Shown here piece after piece: positions 44,313-64,000 of a DNA stretch of 64,000 bases. Positions within the stretch are counted from its first letter, which is position 1. Each line of letters begins with the position of its first letter. Source of the stretch: a phage; sequence record PZ445530.1; one strand, written 5' to 3'. A program made the translations under genes and the position numbers. The notes beneath the pieces are model-generated. The model ran no database searches, was not told the DNA's origin, and saw only the letters and a list, made by a program, of their open reading frames with translations.

Positions 44313-45296
44313 TTAACCTTTCACGAAGTGGTTATTAAGCAGTTGTCTGTGCTGAACCCACCCACAAAAGTTGGCAGACCAGAATTTACCATCACGGTCT
44401 TGATGGGTTACACCTTCCTGCCAAGTACTGATGTCTTGTGTGATTTCACATGAAGACAGGTAGTAGTTTAAACGTTCCATTGCATTATCGTGATCCATAG
44501 GTGTTGCCTGGTGCTCGTAAGGGCTTGCATGAATACGATCCCCACCAATCAATTTTTTAGCAACACTATCTGCCTTTTCAAACGTGCTGTCAATATTTCG
44601 ATAAGATACTTGTGCACAGCAACTAGCACTGATAGACAGAGCTTCTTTAGTATCGAGAATGCAAAGCTTTCCTTCTGTGTCACGTACAGCGTAGTTAAAC
44701 TCTCCGTCCAAATAAACGTGCTCTACATATGGGGTGTGCCATTGACCCGGTTTAAGGATTTCAGGAGTGCTATTCTCAAGAGCCTCCCACATACAATTAG
44801 CTAACATCTGAATCGTAGGATCCGCATCGTGCCAGCAACGGAGGTGGAAAAAATTATTCCACTCGGTGCTTGTTACAACTGTTTTCATGCGCTGGAACGG
44901 CTCCACTAAGCGGTTACATACTTGCTTATGGTAACCAGCAAGGGCGAACTTCTCTGCATGCCAAGCGGCGTTTTTTGCAGCTTCTTTCCAAAACTCTTCA
45001 GGAGTTAGCTCCATGTCAGTGTACTCTACACGGATCTTTTGATCGTGTTCCCCACCATCTTCCATTCCTCGCTTATTTACACCGAAGCGAACTGGCATTG
45101 CCGGATTCTCCACAATCTGTTGCAGCATCTTGCCGACAGGTACTGCACGGGAAGACATGGCGTTTCTGCTGAACACTCGGTGCGTCATAAGCTCTGAGTG
45201 AATAATTCGAGGATACTCTAGTTCAAAAGTGGTGATACGCTTACCTTTCTCGGAAATGCTGTCAGCAATAATCTTTGCAGTGCACAGTTTTAGCAT
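44313..45296 (-). CDS. thyX: Flavin-dependent thymidylate synthase (ThyX-like)
   Basis: ThyX-type signature variant THRVFSRNAMSSRA (RHR-x7-S pattern); location in nucleotide-metabolism cluster. Confidence 0.6.
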   Translation of the reverse strand: MLKLCTAKIIADSISEKGKRITTFELEYPRIIHSELMTHRVFSRNAMSSRAVPVGKMLQQIVENPAMPVRFGVNKRGMEDGGEHDQKIRVEYTDMELTPEEFWKEAAKNAAWHAEKFALAGYHKQVCNRLVEPFQRMKTVVTSTEWNNFFHLRCWHDADPTIQMLANCMWEALENSTPEILKPGQWHTPYVEHVYLDGEFNYAVRDTEGKLCILDTKEALSISASCCAQVSYRNIDSTFEKADSVAKKLIGGDRIHASPYEHQATPMDHDNAMERLNYYLSSCEITQDISTWQEGVTHQDRDGKFWSANFCGWVQHRQLLNNHFVKG

Positions 45297-57331: not shown

Positions 57332-57865
57332 TTAAAGTTCCATAAAGTTTTCTACAGTTTCAATAAATGCTTTATCAGAGAAAGCGTCAACAGCACCGTT
57401 AAACCATACAGGGATCCCGCGATCCTCATATTGATAAAGGTCGCTACGTGAAATGCCACTTCCATCTGCACTCTGCGAATCATACTTGTTTACAATCAGC
57501 AGTTTTGTGCCTTTACAAGTAGCAGGAAACAATTCCCAGTTAAAATTAATAACTGTGTTAGAACAACCTACCAGGATCACCATATCATTGCTTGTGAGAG
57601 ATGTCAACAGGTCATACATGTCTGTATACTTAGGAGCAACCTCACCGAAGAACACTACATTGGGCTTAACCCAGGTATACTTGCCTGTATCTACCTCCGT
57701 GTATCCGATATTTTTAATTACATCATTACCTTCAGCATCTTCGTAGGTGATTTCAGGCAAATACCCGTGGACATGTAAAATATCTTCATGTTTTACACCA
57801 GCACGCTCCAGCAAATCATCTACATTGGTAGTAAGGTTGATCACACGACCAGACCAGCGGGTCAT
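57332..57865 (-). pseudogene. Sir2-family protein fragment lacking the N-terminal NAD-binding motif
   Basis: Sir2 motifs LTTNVDDLLERAG, HVHG, KPNVVFFGE, LVGCSNTV present; GAGIS region absent; no SD; stop 5 codons upstream in frame. Confidence 0.5.
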
Positions 57866-61218: not shown

Positions 61219-61247
61219 TTGACAAACTTTGCTTAACAGTGTAATAT
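61219..61247 (+). promoter_or_regulatory. sigma70-type promoter upstream of tRNA cluster
   Basis: ttgaca - 17 nt - taatat. Confidence 0.55.
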
Positions 61248-61305: not shown

Positions 61306-61380
61306 GCCCTGTTAGCTTAGTGGATAAAGCAGCGGCCTTCTAAGCCGTTGACACTGGTTCGAGTCCAGTACGGGGTGCCA
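61306..61380 (+). tRNA. tRNA-Arg (anticodon TCT)
   Basis: Cloverleaf by hand: acceptor gccctgt/acggggt, T-loop ttcgagt, anticodon loop cttctaa, encoded CCA. Confidence 0.6.
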
Positions 61381-61384
61381 AATT

Positions 61385-61471
61385 GGGGAGTTATCCCGTA
61401 GAGGTAGCGGTGTAGACTGTAAATCTATTGTCATTACGACTCGGGTGGTTCGACTCCACCACTTCCCACCA
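61385..61471 (+). tRNA. tRNA-Tyr (anticodon GTA), class II long variable arm
   Basis: Acceptor ggggagt/acttccc, anticodon loop ctgtaaa, long variable arm, T-loop ttcgact, CCA. Confidence 0.55.
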
Positions 61472-61585
61472 AATTTATAGTTTTAAATGCATAAATCATA
61501 CAGATAATGGCATTGATATTTATCGTCGTTTATACTAGTCACTAACTGCTCGAAAATCAGTGTCATTATCAGTATTGTTTATAAA

Positions 61586-61676
61586 TGAGGGTAGGGAGCA
61601 ATGGTGCTCAAGCGGTCTTGAAAACCGTCCCGTTGAGGATGACTCGATGATGGTTCGATTCCATTACCCTCAGCCA
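61586..61676 (+). tRNA. tRNA-Ser (anticodon TGA), class II
   Basis: Acceptor tgagggt/accctca, anticodon loop cttgaaa, long variable arm, T-loop ttcgatt, CCA. Confidence 0.5.
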
Positions 61677-61774
61677 TATTGTTGACCTTGTAATTAAGCG
61701 AAAGCCGGAAGCAGAACCGGATTATCAAATGTTACAGTCGTCATCGCCGACTAGCAACATGGTCAACATACTGA

Positions 61775-61871
61775 GCTAGGTAAGCCCTTTGGCAAGGGCG
61801 AGGATTTTTAATCCTGAAAATAGACGAGGTAGTCGTTGAATACATAGGTGGTTCGATTCCATCACCTAGCA
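61775..61871 (+). ncRNA. Aberrant tRNA-like element (97 nt)
   Basis: Acceptor gctaggt/acctagc and T-arm ggtgg-ttcgatt-ccatc are canonical, but anticodon arm folds as aggat-tttta-atcct (5-nt loop) with about 30-nt extra arm. Confidence 0.3.
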
Positions 61872-61879
61872 CCTTTTTT

Positions 61880-61955
61880 GCTGATGTAGCACAATTGGTA
61901 GTGCAATTGATTTGTAATCAATAGGTTGCAGGTTCAAGTCCTGCCATCAGCACCA
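61880..61955 (+). tRNA. tRNA-Thr (anticodon TGT)
   Basis: Acceptor gctgatg/catcagc, anticodon stem attga/tcaat with loop tttgtaa, T-loop ttcaagt, CCA. Confidence 0.6.
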
Positions 61956-61956
61956 T

Positions 61957-62031
61957 GGCCCTGTAGCTGGAAGGTTCAAGCAAGCGACTCATAATCGCCA
62001 GACGGTGGTTCAATTCCACCCAGGGCCACCA
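61957..62031 (+). tRNA. tRNA-Met or Ile2 (anticodon CAT)
   Basis: Acceptor ggccctg/cagggcc, anticodon loop ctcataa, T-loop ttcaatt, CCA. Confidence 0.6.
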
Positions 62032-62043
62032 AATAATAAATAC

Positions 62044-62119
62044 TCCGCGTAGCTCAGCTTGGTAGAGCGCCTGATTTGGGATCAGGAGGTCGAGTGTTCG
62101 AATCACTCCGTGGAGACCA
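62044..62119 (+). tRNA. tRNA-Pro (anticodon TGG)
   Basis: Acceptor ctccgcg/cgtggag, anticodon stem cctga/tcagg with loop tttggga, T-loop ttcgaat, CCA. Confidence 0.6.
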
Positions 62120-62939: not shown

Positions 62940-63223
62940 GAGTTGCTACACTGGTTATTGTGTGCTTGTTATTATGTGGGTGTGCAACCAACGTTGAGAG
63001 AGAATACAAGATTGACCCTCCGGATGTAGGAAGGTTGATTGTTAAACCCCCGGAAGGTGCCATGAAACCACCTGCTAAAGCTATGCCTTTGAAGAAAGGT
63101 GCGCCAGATGCAGTGAATTCTGGCATTATGAGGGATAATAATCTGTCTTGTAGCAATGATAGAGCTAAATTGATCATTTTGCAAGACTATATTAGAACAC
63201 TGTTTCCAAAGGAGAGCGGTTAA
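62936..63223 (+). CDS. o-spanin (Rz1-like lipoprotein)
   Basis: Lipoprotein signal with LLLCGCA lipobox-like cysteines; Pro-rich mature part; start overlaps i-spanin stop. Confidence 0.6.
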   Translation: MRVATLVIVCLLLCGCATNVEREYKIDPPDVGRLIVKPPEGAMKPPAKAMPLKKGAPDAVNSGIMRDNNLSCSNDRAKLIILQDYIRTLFPKESG

Positions 63224-63648
63224 TGTCTAAGATTTACGGACCGTGTTCTGAAAAGCAGAAGATGATCCTCGAAAACGATGCAGATATTTTGGTAATCGGC
63301 GGTGCCGCAGGGTCTGGCAAGTCGTTCCTCTTGCAATTGATGCCACTTAAAATTATTGATGACCCCCACAGCTCTGTGGTTATGTTCCGAAGAACAACCC
63401 CGCAGTTGGAAGGTGAGGGTGGACTATGGCCTAAAGCGGTAGCTATTTATAGTGATCTGCCTGAAAACATTAAGCCAAAGTTCAGAGAGAAGGATCATAA
63501 GTTCATTTTTCCACGGTTTGATCCGAACACTGGCAAGTGGGATAGAAGCAAAAAGGGAGCTGTTGTAAAATACTGCCACATGGAGTATGTACAAGATAAG
63601 CTTAACCATCAAGGGCTTGAGTACACCATGGTTTGCTTCGATGAGGGT
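63223..63648 (+). CDS. Terminase large subunit, exon 1 (ATPase N-terminus)
   Basis: Walker A VIGGAAGSGKS; Walker B MVCFDEG at exon end; stop codon lies inside group I intron. Confidence 0.7.
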
Positions 63649-64000
63649 TAATTTGTAGCTCTCGTAAAACCTCCCTAATTGCGGGGAAATCTTTACTATT
63701 AATACCACCAACCTGTCATGGTAACATGATAGAGGCTTCGAAGAGAGATCGAAGGTATGGTAACAGTGTGTTAATTTAGATAATCCGCAGCGAAGCATCC
63801 GAGAGGATGAACGTTCAACGACTAGTCGAAAGACGTAGAATCAAGCGATTCGAAACGGGAGGATAAGCGGTTGTTGTCGCTTATAAGATATAGTCTGGTC
63901 TGCATGGAGACATGCAGCTGCCTGAAAATGGCGGGGCAAGACTAGCGACCTTGCCCGAACATAAACGACACAATTCGAATGGGAGCAGATAGACTATCTG
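63649..64000 (+). mobile_element. Group I intron interrupting terminase large subunit (3' end beyond window)
   Basis: P aattgcggggaaa 63677-63689, Q taatccgcagcgaag 63781-63795 (identical 15-mer to pol intron), R gttcaacgacta 63813-63824, S aagatatagtc 63885-63895; no long ORF inside. Confidence 0.65.

What the first reader, a model, noticed from the sequence alone, without database searches (positions are those of the whole stretch)
61306..62119. tRNA cluster with own promoter, including one aberrant tRNA-like element
Six tRNAs (Arg-TCT, Tyr-GTA, Ser-TGA, Thr-TGT, Met/Ile-CAT, Pro-TGG) fold by hand with encoded CCA. A seventh element (61775-61871) has a canonical acceptor stem and T-arm but a 5-nt anticodon loop and an over-long extra arm. 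It may be a decayed tRNA, a tRNA-like regulatory RNA, or a mis-parsed class II tRNA.
Basis: partly seen in the sequence, partly recalled or inferred. Interest (0 to 1): 0.45.

Follow-up and report, generated by a model that had tools for sequence, protein, structure and literature searches.

The report
Conserved non-decoding tRNA-like phage RNA
The odd seventh "tRNA" in this rV5-like coliphage tRNA operon belongs to a previously undescribed, structurally conserved family of tRNA-shaped RNAs found across the phage subfamily Vequintavirinae; the family has no stable anticodon, so it probably works as a tRNA mimic and not as a decoder.

Summary
ARAGORN finds the six tRNAs at exactly the stated coordinates, all with encoded CCA. 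It also reports a seventh, "tRNA-???", at 61775-61873. A sigma-70-like promoter (TTGACA-17-TAATAT) lies at 61219-61247.

The window is an rV5-like Vequintavirus. The seventh element is neither a decayed tRNA nor a mis-parsed class II tRNA. I collected 26 distinct homologues from five Vequintavirinae genera and from metagenomes. I found none in 185,579 bacterial and archaeal species genomes.

All homologues share:
- a 7-bp acceptor stem;
- a tRNA-Sec-like D arm with a 6-bp stem and 4-nt loop;
- a canonical T arm;
- a 31-41-nt variable region with invariant flanks (GAAAA..., ...AUACAUA).

Helices covary: 97% of cells pair, 12-13 pairs show double changes, and 0/500 shuffles reach this. The tertiary 19:56 pair covaries too. 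The anticodon-like hairpin varies in length and sequence (UUUUA, AUCAA, CAUCCA, CAGCCA...) and never has U33.

Database records call it tRNA-Lys, tRNA-OTHER, pseudo, TERM, a CDS, or nothing.

Most likely it is a processed, non-decoding tRNA mimic. Its partner and role are unknown.

In the rV5 lineage alone, UUU plus A73 leaves open an aberrant tRNA-Lys.

The two "spacers" also hold conserved structured RNAs, and one is shared with phage lambda.

The parts
61219..61247 (+). Sigma-70-like promoter of the RNA operon (-35 TTGACA 61219-61224, 17-nt spacer, -10 TAATAT 61242-61247)
   Evidence: Consensus scan, 10/12 matches. The -10 region is conserved in relatives L013 and L012. This is a consensus match only; no transcript data exist.
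61306..61380 (+). tRNA-Arg(UCU), encoded CCA
   Evidence: ARAGORN. Rfam tRNA 67.8 bits. AGA is 23.5% of Arg codons in the window's long ORFs.
61385..61471 (+). tRNA-Tyr(GUA), class II, encoded CCA
   Evidence: ARAGORN. Best Rfam match is tRNA-Sec at 31.8 bits, as is usual for class II tRNAs.
61491..61582 (+). Spacer-1 long hairpin (core GATAATGGCATTGAT / ATCAGTGTCATTATC)
   Evidence: Fold z = -4.22, 0/200 shuffles as stable. One pair is G.U, G-C or A-U and the next is C-G or U-A in the window, L013 and L012. Found only in Vequintavirus, 114 records.
61586..61676 (+). tRNA-Ser(UGA), class II, G8 instead of U8, encoded CCA
   Evidence: ARAGORN. Rfam tRNA-Sec 40.2 bits. The rV5 paper found it only with ARAGORN (PMC3606486). 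A near-identical 3' end precedes the same downstream element in phage D6.
61681..61767 (+). Spacer-2 structured element: closing stem GTTGACC (61681-61687) / GGTCAAC (61761-61767) around a ~65-nt core with hairpins CCGG-8nt-CCGG and AGTCG-TCATCGC-CGACT
   Evidence: The core is 87-90% identical to lambda 44866-44934, to P1-like phage D6 and to Salmonella phage ST1UNAM. It occurs in 426/5426 complete E. coli genomes and is never annotated. The closing stem differs but pairs in all five versions, and the inner hairpin shows a compensatory change. No Rfam or ARAGORN hit.
61775..61873 (+). The seventh element, a tRNA-like RNA. Acceptor 5' 61775-61781; A8 A9 61782-61783; D arm 61784-61799 (6-bp stem, loop TGGC); G26 61800; anticodon-like hairpin 61801-61815 (AGGAT-TTTTA-ATCCT); variable region 61816-61846; T arm 61847-61863; acceptor 3' 61864-61870; discriminator A 61871; CC 61872-61873
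   Evidence: ARAGORN 'tRNA-???'. Rfam tRNA 35.5 bits with a 26-nt insertion. Family covariance model R1 scores it at 102.9 bits, against 28 bits or less for ordinary tRNAs. Covariation in 24-26 homologues.
61823..61837 (+). Variable-arm hairpin GACGA-GGTAG-TCGTT, flanked by the invariant strands GAAAATA (61816-61822) and GAATACATA (61838-61846)
   Evidence: Folding of the variable region. A-U becomes G-C (compensatory) in the Av-05 lineage (L021, L040). The flanks are invariant in the alignments.
61874..61879 (+). T6 run between the element and tRNA-Thr. It takes the place of the A of CCA
   Evidence: Sequence. The run length varies among relatives: 4-6 T, or TTTTAACAG... in L013. It is flagged terminator-like together with the T arm and acceptor. 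It is probably just a trailer.
61880..61955 (+). tRNA-Thr(UGU), encoded CCA
   Evidence: ARAGORN. Rfam 79.5 bits. Homologous to T4 tRNA-Thr.
61957..62031 (+). tRNA with anticodon CAU, most likely tRNA-Ile2 (AUA reader after lysidine modification) and not Met
   Evidence: ARAGORN 'Met'. With tRNA-Thr it forms a dimer with a 1-nt spacer that aligns with the T4 Thr-Ile dimer (T4 annotation). The BASEL record calls it tRNA-Ile/ATA. The lysidine step is inferred from knowledge of T4 and E. coli tRNA-Ile2.
62043..62119 (+). tRNA-Pro(UGG), encoded CCA
   Evidence: ARAGORN. Rfam 66.4 bits.

Best explanation
The element at 61775-61873 is the rV5-lineage member of a conserved family of tRNA-derived, L-shaped RNAs of Vequintavirinae phages. 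The family has kept the tRNA body and given up a stable anticodon.

Shown:
- One copy per genome sits inside the tRNA operon.
- The acceptor, D and T helices and the D-loop/T-loop elbow pair 19:56 are maintained by compensatory changes.
- The D arm is a 6-bp stem with a 4-nt loop.
- The variable region is 31-41 nt, with invariant purine-rich flanks and a covarying hairpin.
- The anticodon-like hairpin carries a 5-7-nt loop of changing sequence, without U33.

Inferred:
- It is transcribed with the tRNAs from the promoter at 61219.
- It is cut out by RNase P at G61775 and by 3' trimming.
- In the other genera the encoded U73-CCA end is used directly. In the rV5 lineage (A-CC-U6) the end would have to be finished by host exonucleases and the CCA-adding enzyme.

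Most likely mode of action (inferred, not shown): it acts through its tRNA-shaped body as a mimic that occupies, titrates or is modified by some tRNA-recognising factor. Candidates are a host tRNA-targeting defence or toxin enzyme, or a processing or charging enzyme. It would act independently of codon reading.
For: - Family and distribution: 26 distinct sequences from Vequintavirus, Avunavirus, Seunavirus, Mydovirus, Henunavirus and metagenomic relatives. There are none in 185,579 prokaryote species genomes with two patterns.
- Separation from tRNAs: model R1 gives 89-116 bits for members and 28 bits or less for every ordinary tRNA in the same loci, with one hit per genome.
- Structure: 97.9% and 97.4% of cells are paired. 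12 and 13 pairs show changes on both sides. 0/500 shuffles reach this. Slid controls give 33-51% paired.
- Elbow pair 19:56 is G:C in 16 sequences and U:A in 8, with no exception.
- Strand: G.U pairs (U7.G66, G50.U64, G27.U43) fit only the + strand RNA.
- No anticodon: the loops are UUUUA, UUAUA, AUCAA/CAUCAAA, AAUCAAG, CAUCCA, CUUCCA, CCUCCA, CAGCCA and GUGAUA, on 4-5-bp stems.
- Within the rV5/Av-05 lineage all stem substitutions preserve pairing: 4:69 A-U to G-C, the variable-arm stem A-U to G-C, and wobbles at 1:72, 7:66 and 50:64.
- ARAGORN does not call the element in the other genera.
- Annotators disagree or lay hypothetical CDSs over it.
Against: - I found no expression, end-mapping, charging or phenotype data. 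Six literature searches found no paper on the element.
- The partner is unknown, so 'mimic/decoy' is an inference by exclusion.
- In the rV5 lineage the element is the most reduced form: shortest variable arm, 5-nt loop, no full CCA. It could be on its way out.
- Its near-identity among rV5-like genomes is no greater than that of the neighbouring spacers.
- It passes Rfam's tRNA threshold.
- Read with a 4-bp stem, it shows UUUUUAA plus A73, the LysRS identity set.
- The family alignment holds perhaps 8-10 independent lineages, so covariation counts partly reflect shared ancestry.
Confidence: 0.6

Rival explanations
1. It is a structurally aberrant but working tRNA-Lys(UUU), as tRNAscan-SE-based GenBank records say. 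With the closing U-A pair open, the loop is UUUUUAA. LysRS charges the RNA through U34-U36 and A73. It would then supply lysine decoding, possibly in a form that escapes tRNA-Lys-directed nucleases such as PrrC or PARIS AriB.
For: - Rfam aligns it this way at 35.5 bits, above the gathering score.
- Several records annotate tRNA-Lys/AAA.
- E. coli tRNA-Lys has the loop CUUUUAA and A73 (sequence quoted in PMC11464382).
- The rV5 lineage is the only one with discriminator A.
- Phage tRNA-Lys variants are known to defeat PARIS and PrrC (PMC11464382, PMC11555353).
- Relatives carry an RNA ligase and polynucleotide kinase 3.5 kb upstream.
- Lys is the commonest of the tested residues in the window's ORFs.
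Against: - The anticodon stem would have only 4 bp, and the variable region is 31 nt with long unpaired flanks.
- It has A8/U14 in place of U8/A14.
- There is no encoded terminal A.
- The sister Av-05 lineage has UUUAUAA (UAU) with U or C at position 73. No other genus has UUU. Lys identity is therefore not the conserved function.
- The rV5 genome paper did not count it as a tRNA.
- The window itself lacks the ligase/kinase module.
Confidence: 0.13
2. It is a cis-acting processing or transcript-architecture element. On this view it is a tRNA-shaped RNase P/RNase Z site, or a partial attenuator with its T run, that shapes maturation or the relative dosage of the flanking tRNAs. It would have no trans function.
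For: - It lies between tRNAs in every genome, usually 2-7 nt from a neighbour.
- The acceptor, T arm and elbow, which RNase P recognises (established knowledge), are the best conserved parts.
- The T arm, acceptor and T6 run are flagged terminator-like in the window.
Against: - Adjacent genuine tRNAs already provide RNase P sites, so a dedicated punctuation mark is redundant.
- This view does not explain the invariant variable-region flanks, the conserved GAAYUAACAGUA variable-arm loop in many lineages, the 6/4 D arm, or the conserved U73-CCA end.
- The T run is specific to the rV5 lineage and variable in length.
Confidence: 0.12
3. It is a decayed tRNA gene, a pseudogene carried along in the cluster.
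For: - Some pipelines label it tRNA-Pseudo or OTHER.
- It has no canonical anticodon loop, and the CCA is lost in the rV5 and Av-05 lineages.
- The neighbouring tRNA in Seunavirus and Mydovirus also has degenerate anticodon loops.
Against: - All four tRNA-type helices pair in 100% of cells across genera whose variable arms can no longer be aligned, with many double changes.
- The elbow pair covaries.
- The unpaired flanks are invariant.
- It is retained as a single copy in every genome examined, even where the cluster has shrunk from more than 20 tRNAs to 6.
Confidence: 0.05
4. It is a recoding tRNA: an opal suppressor (UCA in the Henunavirus type, annotated 'tRNA-TERM suppressor'), a tRNA-Sec/allo-tRNA-like serine or cysteine acceptor, or a frameshift-promoting tRNA with an odd loop size.
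For: - The Henunavirus-type loop CAUCAAA differs by one base from the tRNA-Sec loop CUUCAAA.
- It has the 6-bp/4-nt D arm and a long variable arm, as in tRNA-Sec and allo-tRNAs (PMC5389517).
- Rfam tRNA-Sec scores it at 37.6-39 bits.
- GenBank calls it a suppressor.
- It has U73, as in SelC* tRNA-Cys.
Against: - Position 33 is A, not U.
- The acceptor/T branch is 7/5, not 8/5, 8/4 or 9/3.
- The Rfam scores are below the tRNA-Sec gathering score of 47 and no higher than those of ordinary tRNA-Ser and tRNA-Tyr.
- UCA is absent from most lineages, including the window.
- I did not look for recoded genes, and the phages are annotated with the standard code.
Confidence: 0.05

Closest known systems
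Class II tRNAs, tRNA-Sec and allo-tRNAs (Mukai et al. 2017, PMC5389517)
   Same: It has a long extra arm. Its D arm has a 6-bp stem and a tetraloop. U73 occurs in most members. It has a canonical T arm and a 12-bp acceptor/T branch. It is encoded in phage tRNA clusters. The Henunavirus-type loop contains UCA.
   Different: The branch is 7/5, not 8/5, 8/4 or 9/3. The anticodon-like loop is 5-7 nt with A or another base at position 33, and it is not conserved. The variable hairpin is flanked by 7 and about 10 invariant unpaired bases, against 1-2 in class II tRNAs. A8/U14 replaces U8/A14. The tRNA-Sec model stays below threshold.
Phage T4 species 1 and species 2 RNAs (rnaC, rnaD)
   Same: These are non-tRNA small RNAs encoded inside a coliphage tRNA cluster next to real tRNAs. 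rnaC carries a T-arm-like GGTTCGAATCC hairpin near its 3' end. From my own knowledge, they are stable, are processed with the tRNAs, and still have no known function.
   Different: There is no sequence similarity. R1 finds only T4 tRNA-Thr and tRNA-Leu at 22-25 bits. The T4 RNAs are longer (119 and 139 nt) and are not full cloverleaves.
Phage tRNAs that neutralise tRNA-cleaving defences (T5 tRNA-Lys against PARIS; tRNA-Tyr against Retron-Eco7; tRNA-Lys against PrrC)
   Same: It is encoded in a virulent coliphage tRNA operon. The rV5-lineage loop resembles that of tRNA-Lys. Variation is concentrated in the anticodon stem-loop, which is where those phage tRNAs differ from host tRNAs (PMC11464382, PMC11555353, PMC10264068).
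   Different: Those are canonical, decoding, chargeable tRNAs that replace the cleaved host species. This RNA has no conserved anticodon and a non-canonical core. If it acts in defence evasion at all, it would have to act as a decoy or inhibitor.
Non-decoding tRNA mimics (tmRNA tRNA-like domain, bacterial YrlA Y RNA, mascRNA, plant-virus tRNA-like structures)
   Same: The acceptor/T-arm/elbow mimicry is kept for recognition by tRNA enzymes while codon reading is lost.
   Different: It has a different topology from YrlA, whose ends lie in the Ro-binding stem. It has no mRNA-like part as in tmRNA. It is not part of a genome end. It matches none of those Rfam families.

Membership tests
Canonical elongator tRNA (Rfam RF00005) | 7-bp acceptor stem directly stacked on a 5-bp T stem with a 7-nt T loop (T54-Psi55-C56) | tested here: met
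   GCTAGGT/ACCTAGC and GGTGG-TTCGATT-CCATC. Pairing is 100% with covariation in 24-26 homologues.
Canonical elongator tRNA (Rfam RF00005) | 5-bp anticodon stem with a 7-nt loop carrying U33 and a purine at position 37, and an anticodon conserved among orthologues | tested here: not met
   The window has a 5-bp stem with the 5-nt loop TTTTA (or 4 bp with UUUUUAA). Orthologues have 5-, 6- and 7-nt loops of different sequence, none with U33 before a conserved triplet.
Canonical elongator tRNA (Rfam RF00005) | Variable region of 4-5 nt (class I) or roughly 10-24 nt with 1-2 unpaired flanking bases (class II); U8-A14 tertiary pair | tested here: not met
   The variable region is 31 nt here and 36-41 nt elsewhere, with 7 and about 9 invariant unpaired flanking bases. 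Positions 8/14 are A/U in all members. The size limits are from general tRNA knowledge.
Canonical elongator tRNA (Rfam RF00005) | Score at or above the curated gathering score | tested here: met
   35.5 bits against 29. The score depends on a 26-nt insertion and a deleted stem pair. Members from other genera match tRNA-Sec best and stay below its threshold.
tRNA-Lys(UUU) | Anticodon U34-U35-U36 and discriminator A73 (E. coli LysRS identity set, from established knowledge) | tested here: inconclusive
   Both are present in the window only if the closing U-A pair is left open. The Av-05 lineage has UAU with U or C at position 73, and all other genera lack UUU and have U73. Charging cannot be tested here.
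tRNA-Sec (Rfam RF01852) | 13-bp acceptor/T branch (8/5 in bacteria), anticodon UCA, G73 | tested here: not met
   The branch is 7/5. There is no UCA in the window, and UCA occurs only in Henunavirus-type members. The discriminator is A or U. Scores are 37.6-39 bits against a gathering score of 47.
tRNA-Sec (Rfam RF01852) | 6-bp D stem with a 4-nt D loop, and a long extra arm | tested here: met
   GCCCTT-TGGC-AAGGGC. RNAalifold and single-sequence folds agree. The two inner pairs are invariant U-A, so covariation cannot test them.
allo-tRNA (Mukai et al. 2017) | 8/4 or 9/3 acceptor/T branch | tested here: not met
   A8 faces the last C of the T stem, so no eighth acceptor pair is possible. This holds in all members. 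The definition is from PMC5389517.
Vequintavirinae tRNA-like RNA family (defined here, model R1) | R1 score far above that of tRNAs; 6/4 D arm; G26; GAAAA and AUACAUA flanks of the variable hairpin; single copy inside the tRNA cluster | tested here: met
   The window scores 102.9 bits. All listed features are present.
Stable, processed small RNA | A mature transcript with defined 5' and 3' ends in infected cells | not testable with these tools
   No RNA-seq or northern data were found for any Vequintavirinae phage.

The most novel reading that the evidence does not exclude
The family may be a phage-made tRNA decoy. It would be an L-shaped RNA with a CCA end that binds and neutralises a host tRNA-targeting immune or toxin enzyme, such as an anticodon nuclease, an acceptor-end nuclease or modifier, or an acetyltransferase. 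The fast-changing tips of the anticodon-like and extra hairpins would then mark an arms race with such enzymes. In the rV5 lineage the tip has converged on the tRNA-Lys loop (UUUUUAA, A73), which is the target of PrrC and PARIS.
Probability: 0.2. Interest if true: 0.8.

Novelty: new variant of a known kind. Interest (0 to 1): 0.58.

Why it matters
Phage tRNAs are now known to be weapons against tRNA-cleaving bacterial immunity, and not only a fix for codon usage. This element is a tRNA-shaped RNA that a whole subfamily of widely used therapeutic and typing phages (rV5, PVP-SE1 and relatives) has kept under structural selection while discarding the anticodon. Its function therefore lies outside decoding.

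In practice the element is annotated inconsistently in well over a hundred GenBank genomes. It appears as tRNA-Lys, tRNA-OTHER, pseudo, suppressor, a hypothetical CDS, or nothing. A dedicated covariance model would fix that.

The element is small, single-copy and lies in genetically tractable coliphages of the BASEL collection. Deletion and tRNA-seq experiments could test it directly.

The second structured element found in the cluster is shared with lambda and P1-like phages. This suggests that phage tRNA operons carry more unrecognised RNAs than the classic unexplained T4 species 1 and 2 RNAs.

Tried and rejected
- Alternative cloverleaf parses. ARAGORN's stem ATTTT/AAAAT with an 8-nt loop 'atcc' is not conserved outside the rV5 lineage. 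Taking the extra hairpin as the real anticodon arm fails, because its loops vary from 4 to 14 nt with no U33. 8/4 and 9/3 acceptor branches are impossible.
- tRNA-Sec descent. The scores are no better than those of ordinary class II tRNAs.
- Hammerhead-like reading of CUGAAAAUA...GAA. The core G8 is absent (judged by eye only).
- Homology to T4 rnaC/rnaD. None was found.
- Presence in bacteria or prophages. Two pattern scans of 185,579 species genomes found nothing.
- Wider family in IMG/VR with looser patterns. These gave only chance matches plus one distant relative, L061.
- Antisense target of the invariant 3' flank within the window. There were no more hits than chance.
- A partner gene. 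Relatives have an RNA ligase, a polynucleotide kinase and a phosphoesterase 3.5 kb upstream. The window has lost the ligase and the kinase, so the element does not depend on them.
- Literature. Six searches and nine papers read gave no description of the element. The Pas sRNA preprint and the Schlafen, PARIS and retron papers do not mention it or Vequintavirinae.
- Not used: protein homology searches, structure prediction and fold search, because the feature is an RNA.
Full report
**1. The observation.**
ARAGORN finds seven genes in the 64-kb window, all in 61306-62119 on the + strand:
- Arg(tct) 61306-61380
- Tyr(gta) 61385-61471
- Ser(tga) 61586-61676
- 'tRNA-???' with a four-base 'anticodon' atcc, 61775-61873
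- Thr(tgt) 61880-61955
- Met(cat) 61957-62031
- Pro(tgg) 62043-62119

The six ordinary genes all end in an encoded CCA.

Rfam's tRNA model scores Thr, Arg, Pro and the CAT tRNA at 60-80 bits. The class II Tyr and Ser match the related tRNA-Sec model best, which is usual for long-arm tRNAs. The seventh element reaches 35.5 bits (gathering score 29), but only with a 26-nt insertion in the variable region and one anticodon-stem pair deleted.

Folded alone, the element gives an acceptor stem, a D arm, a short hairpin where the anticodon arm should be, a further hairpin and a T arm. Its z-score is -3.66 and 0 of 200 shuffles fold as well.

A sigma-70-type site, TTGACA-17-TAATAT, lies at 61219-61247.

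**2. Where the window comes from.**
The region is 99.8% identical to Escherichia phage slur16 and 98-99.5% identical to many other rV5-like phages of the genus Vequintavirus.

The published rV5 analysis lists six tRNAs and does not mention a seventh (PMC3606486).

GenBank records disagree about the element. They call it 'tRNA-???(atcc)', tRNA-Lys, tRNA-OTHER, tRNA-Pseudo, tRNA-TERM, plain 'tRNA', or nothing.

Codon use in 32 long ORFs of the window fits the six real tRNAs: AGA 23.5% of Arg, ACA 37.9% of Thr, CCA 27.4% of Pro and ATA 12.3% of Ile. This agrees with the rV5 paper.

The Thr-CAT pair has a 1-nt spacer and aligns with the T4 tRNA-Thr/tRNA-Ile dimer. The CAT tRNA is therefore most likely the AUA-reading tRNA-Ile2. 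That reading rests on homology plus established knowledge of T4.

**3. The seventh element has orthologues.**
A sensitive BLAST search found diverged copies (72-75% identity) in Seunavirus phages, and T-arm-only matches in Mydovirus and other Seunavirus phages.

Aligning those loci showed a full-length homologue in each, always inside the tRNA cluster. Pattern scans of IMG/VR and of metagenomes added more. The total is 26 distinct sequences.

Named carriers are:
- Vequintavirus
- Avunavirus (Av-05)
- Seunavirus (PVP-SE1, KE22, EspYZU15, 4MG)
- Mydovirus (BIS47, Mydo)
- Henunavirus (Erwinia phage pEp_SNUABM_01), where the element is annotated 'tRNA-TERM, suppressor'

Two pattern scans of one genome from each of 185,579 bacterial and archaeal species found nothing.

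A covariance model built from 24 sequences (R1) scores family members at 89-116 bits and every ordinary tRNA in the same loci at 28 bits or less. It gives exactly one hit per genome. One distant relative, L061, scores 43 bits.

ARAGORN does not call the element in the other genera. In KE22 and Mydo, hypothetical CDSs have been laid over it.

**4. Anatomy and selection.**
All members share these features:
- a 7-bp acceptor stem, then A8 and R9;
- a D arm that folds as a 6-bp stem with a 4-nt loop (UGGC, UGUC or UGGU);
- G26;
- a 4-5-bp stem capped by a 5-7-nt loop;
- a 31-41-nt variable region made of GAAAA(A)UA, a hairpin, and (U)RAAUACAUA;
- a canonical T arm;
- in all but the rV5 and Av-05 lineages, U73 followed by an encoded CCA.

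On the 24-sequence alignment, 97.9% of cells form standard pairs. Twelve of 24 pairs show changes on both sides, and none of 500 column shuffles reaches these values. Sliding the partners by 1-3 columns drops pairing to 34-49%.

The model-based alignment of 26 sequences gives 97.4% pairing and 13 pairs with double changes.

The acceptor, D and T helices are paired in 100% of cells. The tertiary elbow pair between D-loop position 19 and T-loop position 56 is G:C in 16 sequences and U:A in 8, without exception. This argues for a genuine L-shaped fold.

The G.U pairs fit only the + strand as RNA.

The variable hairpin cannot be aligned between clades, but it always forms: GACGA/UCGUU, CCCCC/GGGGG, AGCG/CGCU, UUCCU/GGGAA and others. 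In many lineages it carries a conserved loop, GAAYUAACAGUA.

**5. What is not conserved: the anticodon.**
The loop on the anticodon-like stem varies by lineage:

| Lineage | Loop |
|---|---|
| rV5 | UUUUA |
| Av-05 | UUAUA |
| Henunavirus type | AUCAA / CAUCAAA / AAUCAAG |
| Seunavirus and Mydovirus | CAUCCA |
| single lineages | CUUCCA, CCUCCA, CAGCCA, GUGAUA |

Loop length changes between 5, 6 and 7 nt. Stem length changes between 4 and 5 bp. The base before the putative anticodon is A or C, never a conserved U33.

In a decoding tRNA this loop is the most constrained part. Here it is the least constrained. This rules out a shared decoding function and also a simple mis-parse.

**6. Not a pseudogene.**
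Within the rV5/Av-05 lineage every stem substitution keeps the pair:
- 4:69 changes from A-U to G-C.
- The variable-arm stem changes from A-U to G-C.
- Wobbles appear at 1:72, 7:66 and 50:64.

The element is kept as a single copy even though the rV5 cluster has shrunk to six tRNAs, against more than 20 in some relatives.

**7. How it probably works.**
Shown: it is an RNA-level structure under purifying selection, tRNA-like in body and elbow, without a stable anticodon, and specific to phages.

Inferred:
- It is co-transcribed from the 61219 promoter.
- RNase P cleaves at G61775, and the 3' end is trimmed.
- In most genera the encoded U73-CCA end suggests the 3' end matters.
- In the window the end is A-CC-U6. 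E. coli exonucleases and the CCA-adding enzyme could convert it to ACCA. This is established enzymology, untested here.

The conserved parts are those read by tRNA-binding enzymes, and the codon-reading tip is free to vary. I therefore favour a trans-acting tRNA mimic that engages some tRNA-recognising factor. The factor is unknown.

The purely cis 'punctuation' idea is weaker. Flanking tRNAs already supply RNase P sites, and the idea does not explain the invariant flanks of the variable region.

**8. The rV5-lineage twist.**
If the closing U-A pair is left open, the window's loop reads UUUUUAA. The E. coli tRNA-Lys loop is CUUUUAA (sequence in PMC11464382). The rV5 lineage is also the only one with discriminator A73. 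Together these make the LysRS identity set (established knowledge).

Phage tRNA-Lys variants are known to defeat PARIS and PrrC.

Relatives such as MaxTheCat encode an RNA ligase, a polynucleotide kinase and a phosphoesterase 3.5 kb upstream of the cluster.

Against a working tRNA-Lys:
- the anticodon stem would have 4 bp;
- the variable region is 31 nt;
- the core has A8/U14;
- the terminal A is missing;
- the sister Av-05 lineage has UAU with U or C at position 73.

I keep this as the main rival (0.13) and as part of the most novel reading, convergence of a decoy on the tRNA-Lys loop.

**9. Comparison with known systems.**
The nearest structural relatives are tRNA-Sec and the allo-tRNAs. They share the 6/4 D arm, the long extra arm and U73 (PMC5389517). 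The defining 8/5, 8/4 or 9/3 branch is not met, and the tRNA-Sec model stays below threshold.

The nearest biological analogy is the pair of T4 'species 1 and 2' RNAs in the T4 tRNA cluster. I found no sequence or model similarity to them.

The element matches no other Rfam 15 family. I found no paper describing it.

I class it as a new variant of a known kind, the tRNA-like non-coding RNAs.

**10. The 'spacers' are not empty.**

*Spacer 2 (61681-67 to 61761-67).* It has a 7-bp closing stem around a ~65-nt core.
- In the divergent relative L013 the closing stem is replaced by a different, fully complementary one, while the core is unchanged.
- The core is 87-90% identical to lambda 44866-44934 (between orf-64 and S), to P1-like phage D6 and to Salmonella phage ST1UNAM.
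- In D6 it again follows a tRNA-Ser(UGA) 3' end.
- It also occurs in lambdoid prophages and P1-like plasmids in 426 of 5,426 complete E. coli genomes, never annotated.
- Each copy has its own closing stem, and an inner hairpin shows a compensatory change.

*Spacer 1.* It holds a long hairpin (z = -4.2) with compensatory variation. It is confined to Vequintavirus.

The operon therefore encodes six tRNAs and three further structured RNAs.

**11. Limits.**
There are no expression, charging or phenotype data. The 26 sequences represent perhaps 8-10 independent lineages, so the covariation counts are inflated by shared ancestry. The control with slid partners and the number of distinct pair types argue that the signal is real. 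The homologue search used exact patterns, so the true taxonomic range may be wider.

Noticed in passing
window 61681-61767 (+); lambda NC_001416 44866-44934; D6 NC_050154 7056-7121; L058 1201-1268: The gap between tRNA-Ser and the odd element holds a ~87-nt structured element. Its ~65-nt core is 87-90% identical to unannotated sequence in lambda (between orf-64/tR' and S), P1-like phage D6 and Salmonella phage ST1UNAM. In D6 it again lies directly after a tRNA-Ser(UGA). It is also present in 426/5426 complete E. coli genomes. Each copy has a different but complementary closing stem. It matches no Rfam family.
   Followed up: partly
window 61491-61582 (+): The gap between tRNA-Tyr and tRNA-Ser folds into a long hairpin (15-bp core, z = -4.2). 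Relatives L013 and L012 show compensatory and wobble changes in it. It was found only in Vequintavirus (114 records). One record annotates it as a 'repeat_region'.
   Followed up: partly
window 63639-63917 (+), within the gene starting at 63223: Rfam finds a group I intron (84.3 bits). It begins where the large terminase ORF (Terminase_6N, 142 aa) is cut off. The terminase gene of relative MaxTheCat is uninterrupted.
   Followed up: partly
window ~57853-57861: Compared with MaxTheCat and about 118 other rV5-like genomes, the window lacks 2.08 kb. The missing piece covers the Sir2 N-terminus, a 116-aa ORF, the RNA ligase, the polynucleotide kinase and the start of a phosphoesterase. The two flanking alignments overlap by 9 nt at the junction. 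The Sir2 and Metallophos ORFs left in the window are truncated.
   Followed up: yes
L002 1419-1494, L003 1418-1494, L004 1351-1426, L005 1351-1425, L007 1353-1426: In Seunavirus and Mydovirus, the tRNA just upstream of the element also has unstable, non-canonical anticodon loops. They are ACGAUUC (C33, U37), an 8-nt loop, a 6-nt loop, and CUGCGCA (GCG with C37). The rest of the cloverleaf is kept. ARAGORN calls them Ile, '???' or Arg.
   Followed up: partly
L007 1429-1538 versus L014 8694-8802: Phage 4MG has the anticodon-like loop CAGCCA and carries UGGC in its variable arm. Its close relative L014 and other Seunavirus and Mydovirus members have CAUCCA and UGGA. This may reflect a tertiary contact between the loop and the variable arm, or it may be chance.
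   Followed up: no
L061 29-137: A 45.6-kb IMG/VR contig carries a distant relative of the family (R1 43 bits). It has the same 6/4 D arm, a UUCCAG loop and a CUAACAG motif in the variable region. It lacks the AUACAUA flank and the CCA.
   Followed up: no
GenBank MG0656xx records: Eighteen or nineteen records named 'Campylobacter phage' (host C. jejuni) are 99-100% identical to rV5-like coliphages across this region. They are probably mislabelled or contaminated entries.
   Followed up: no
window 61586-61676: tRNA-Ser(UGA) has G at position 8 instead of the near-universal U. The rV5 authors report that tRNAscan missed it. The D6 record notes that its near-identical copy was 'not called by tRNAscan-SE'.
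   Followed up: no
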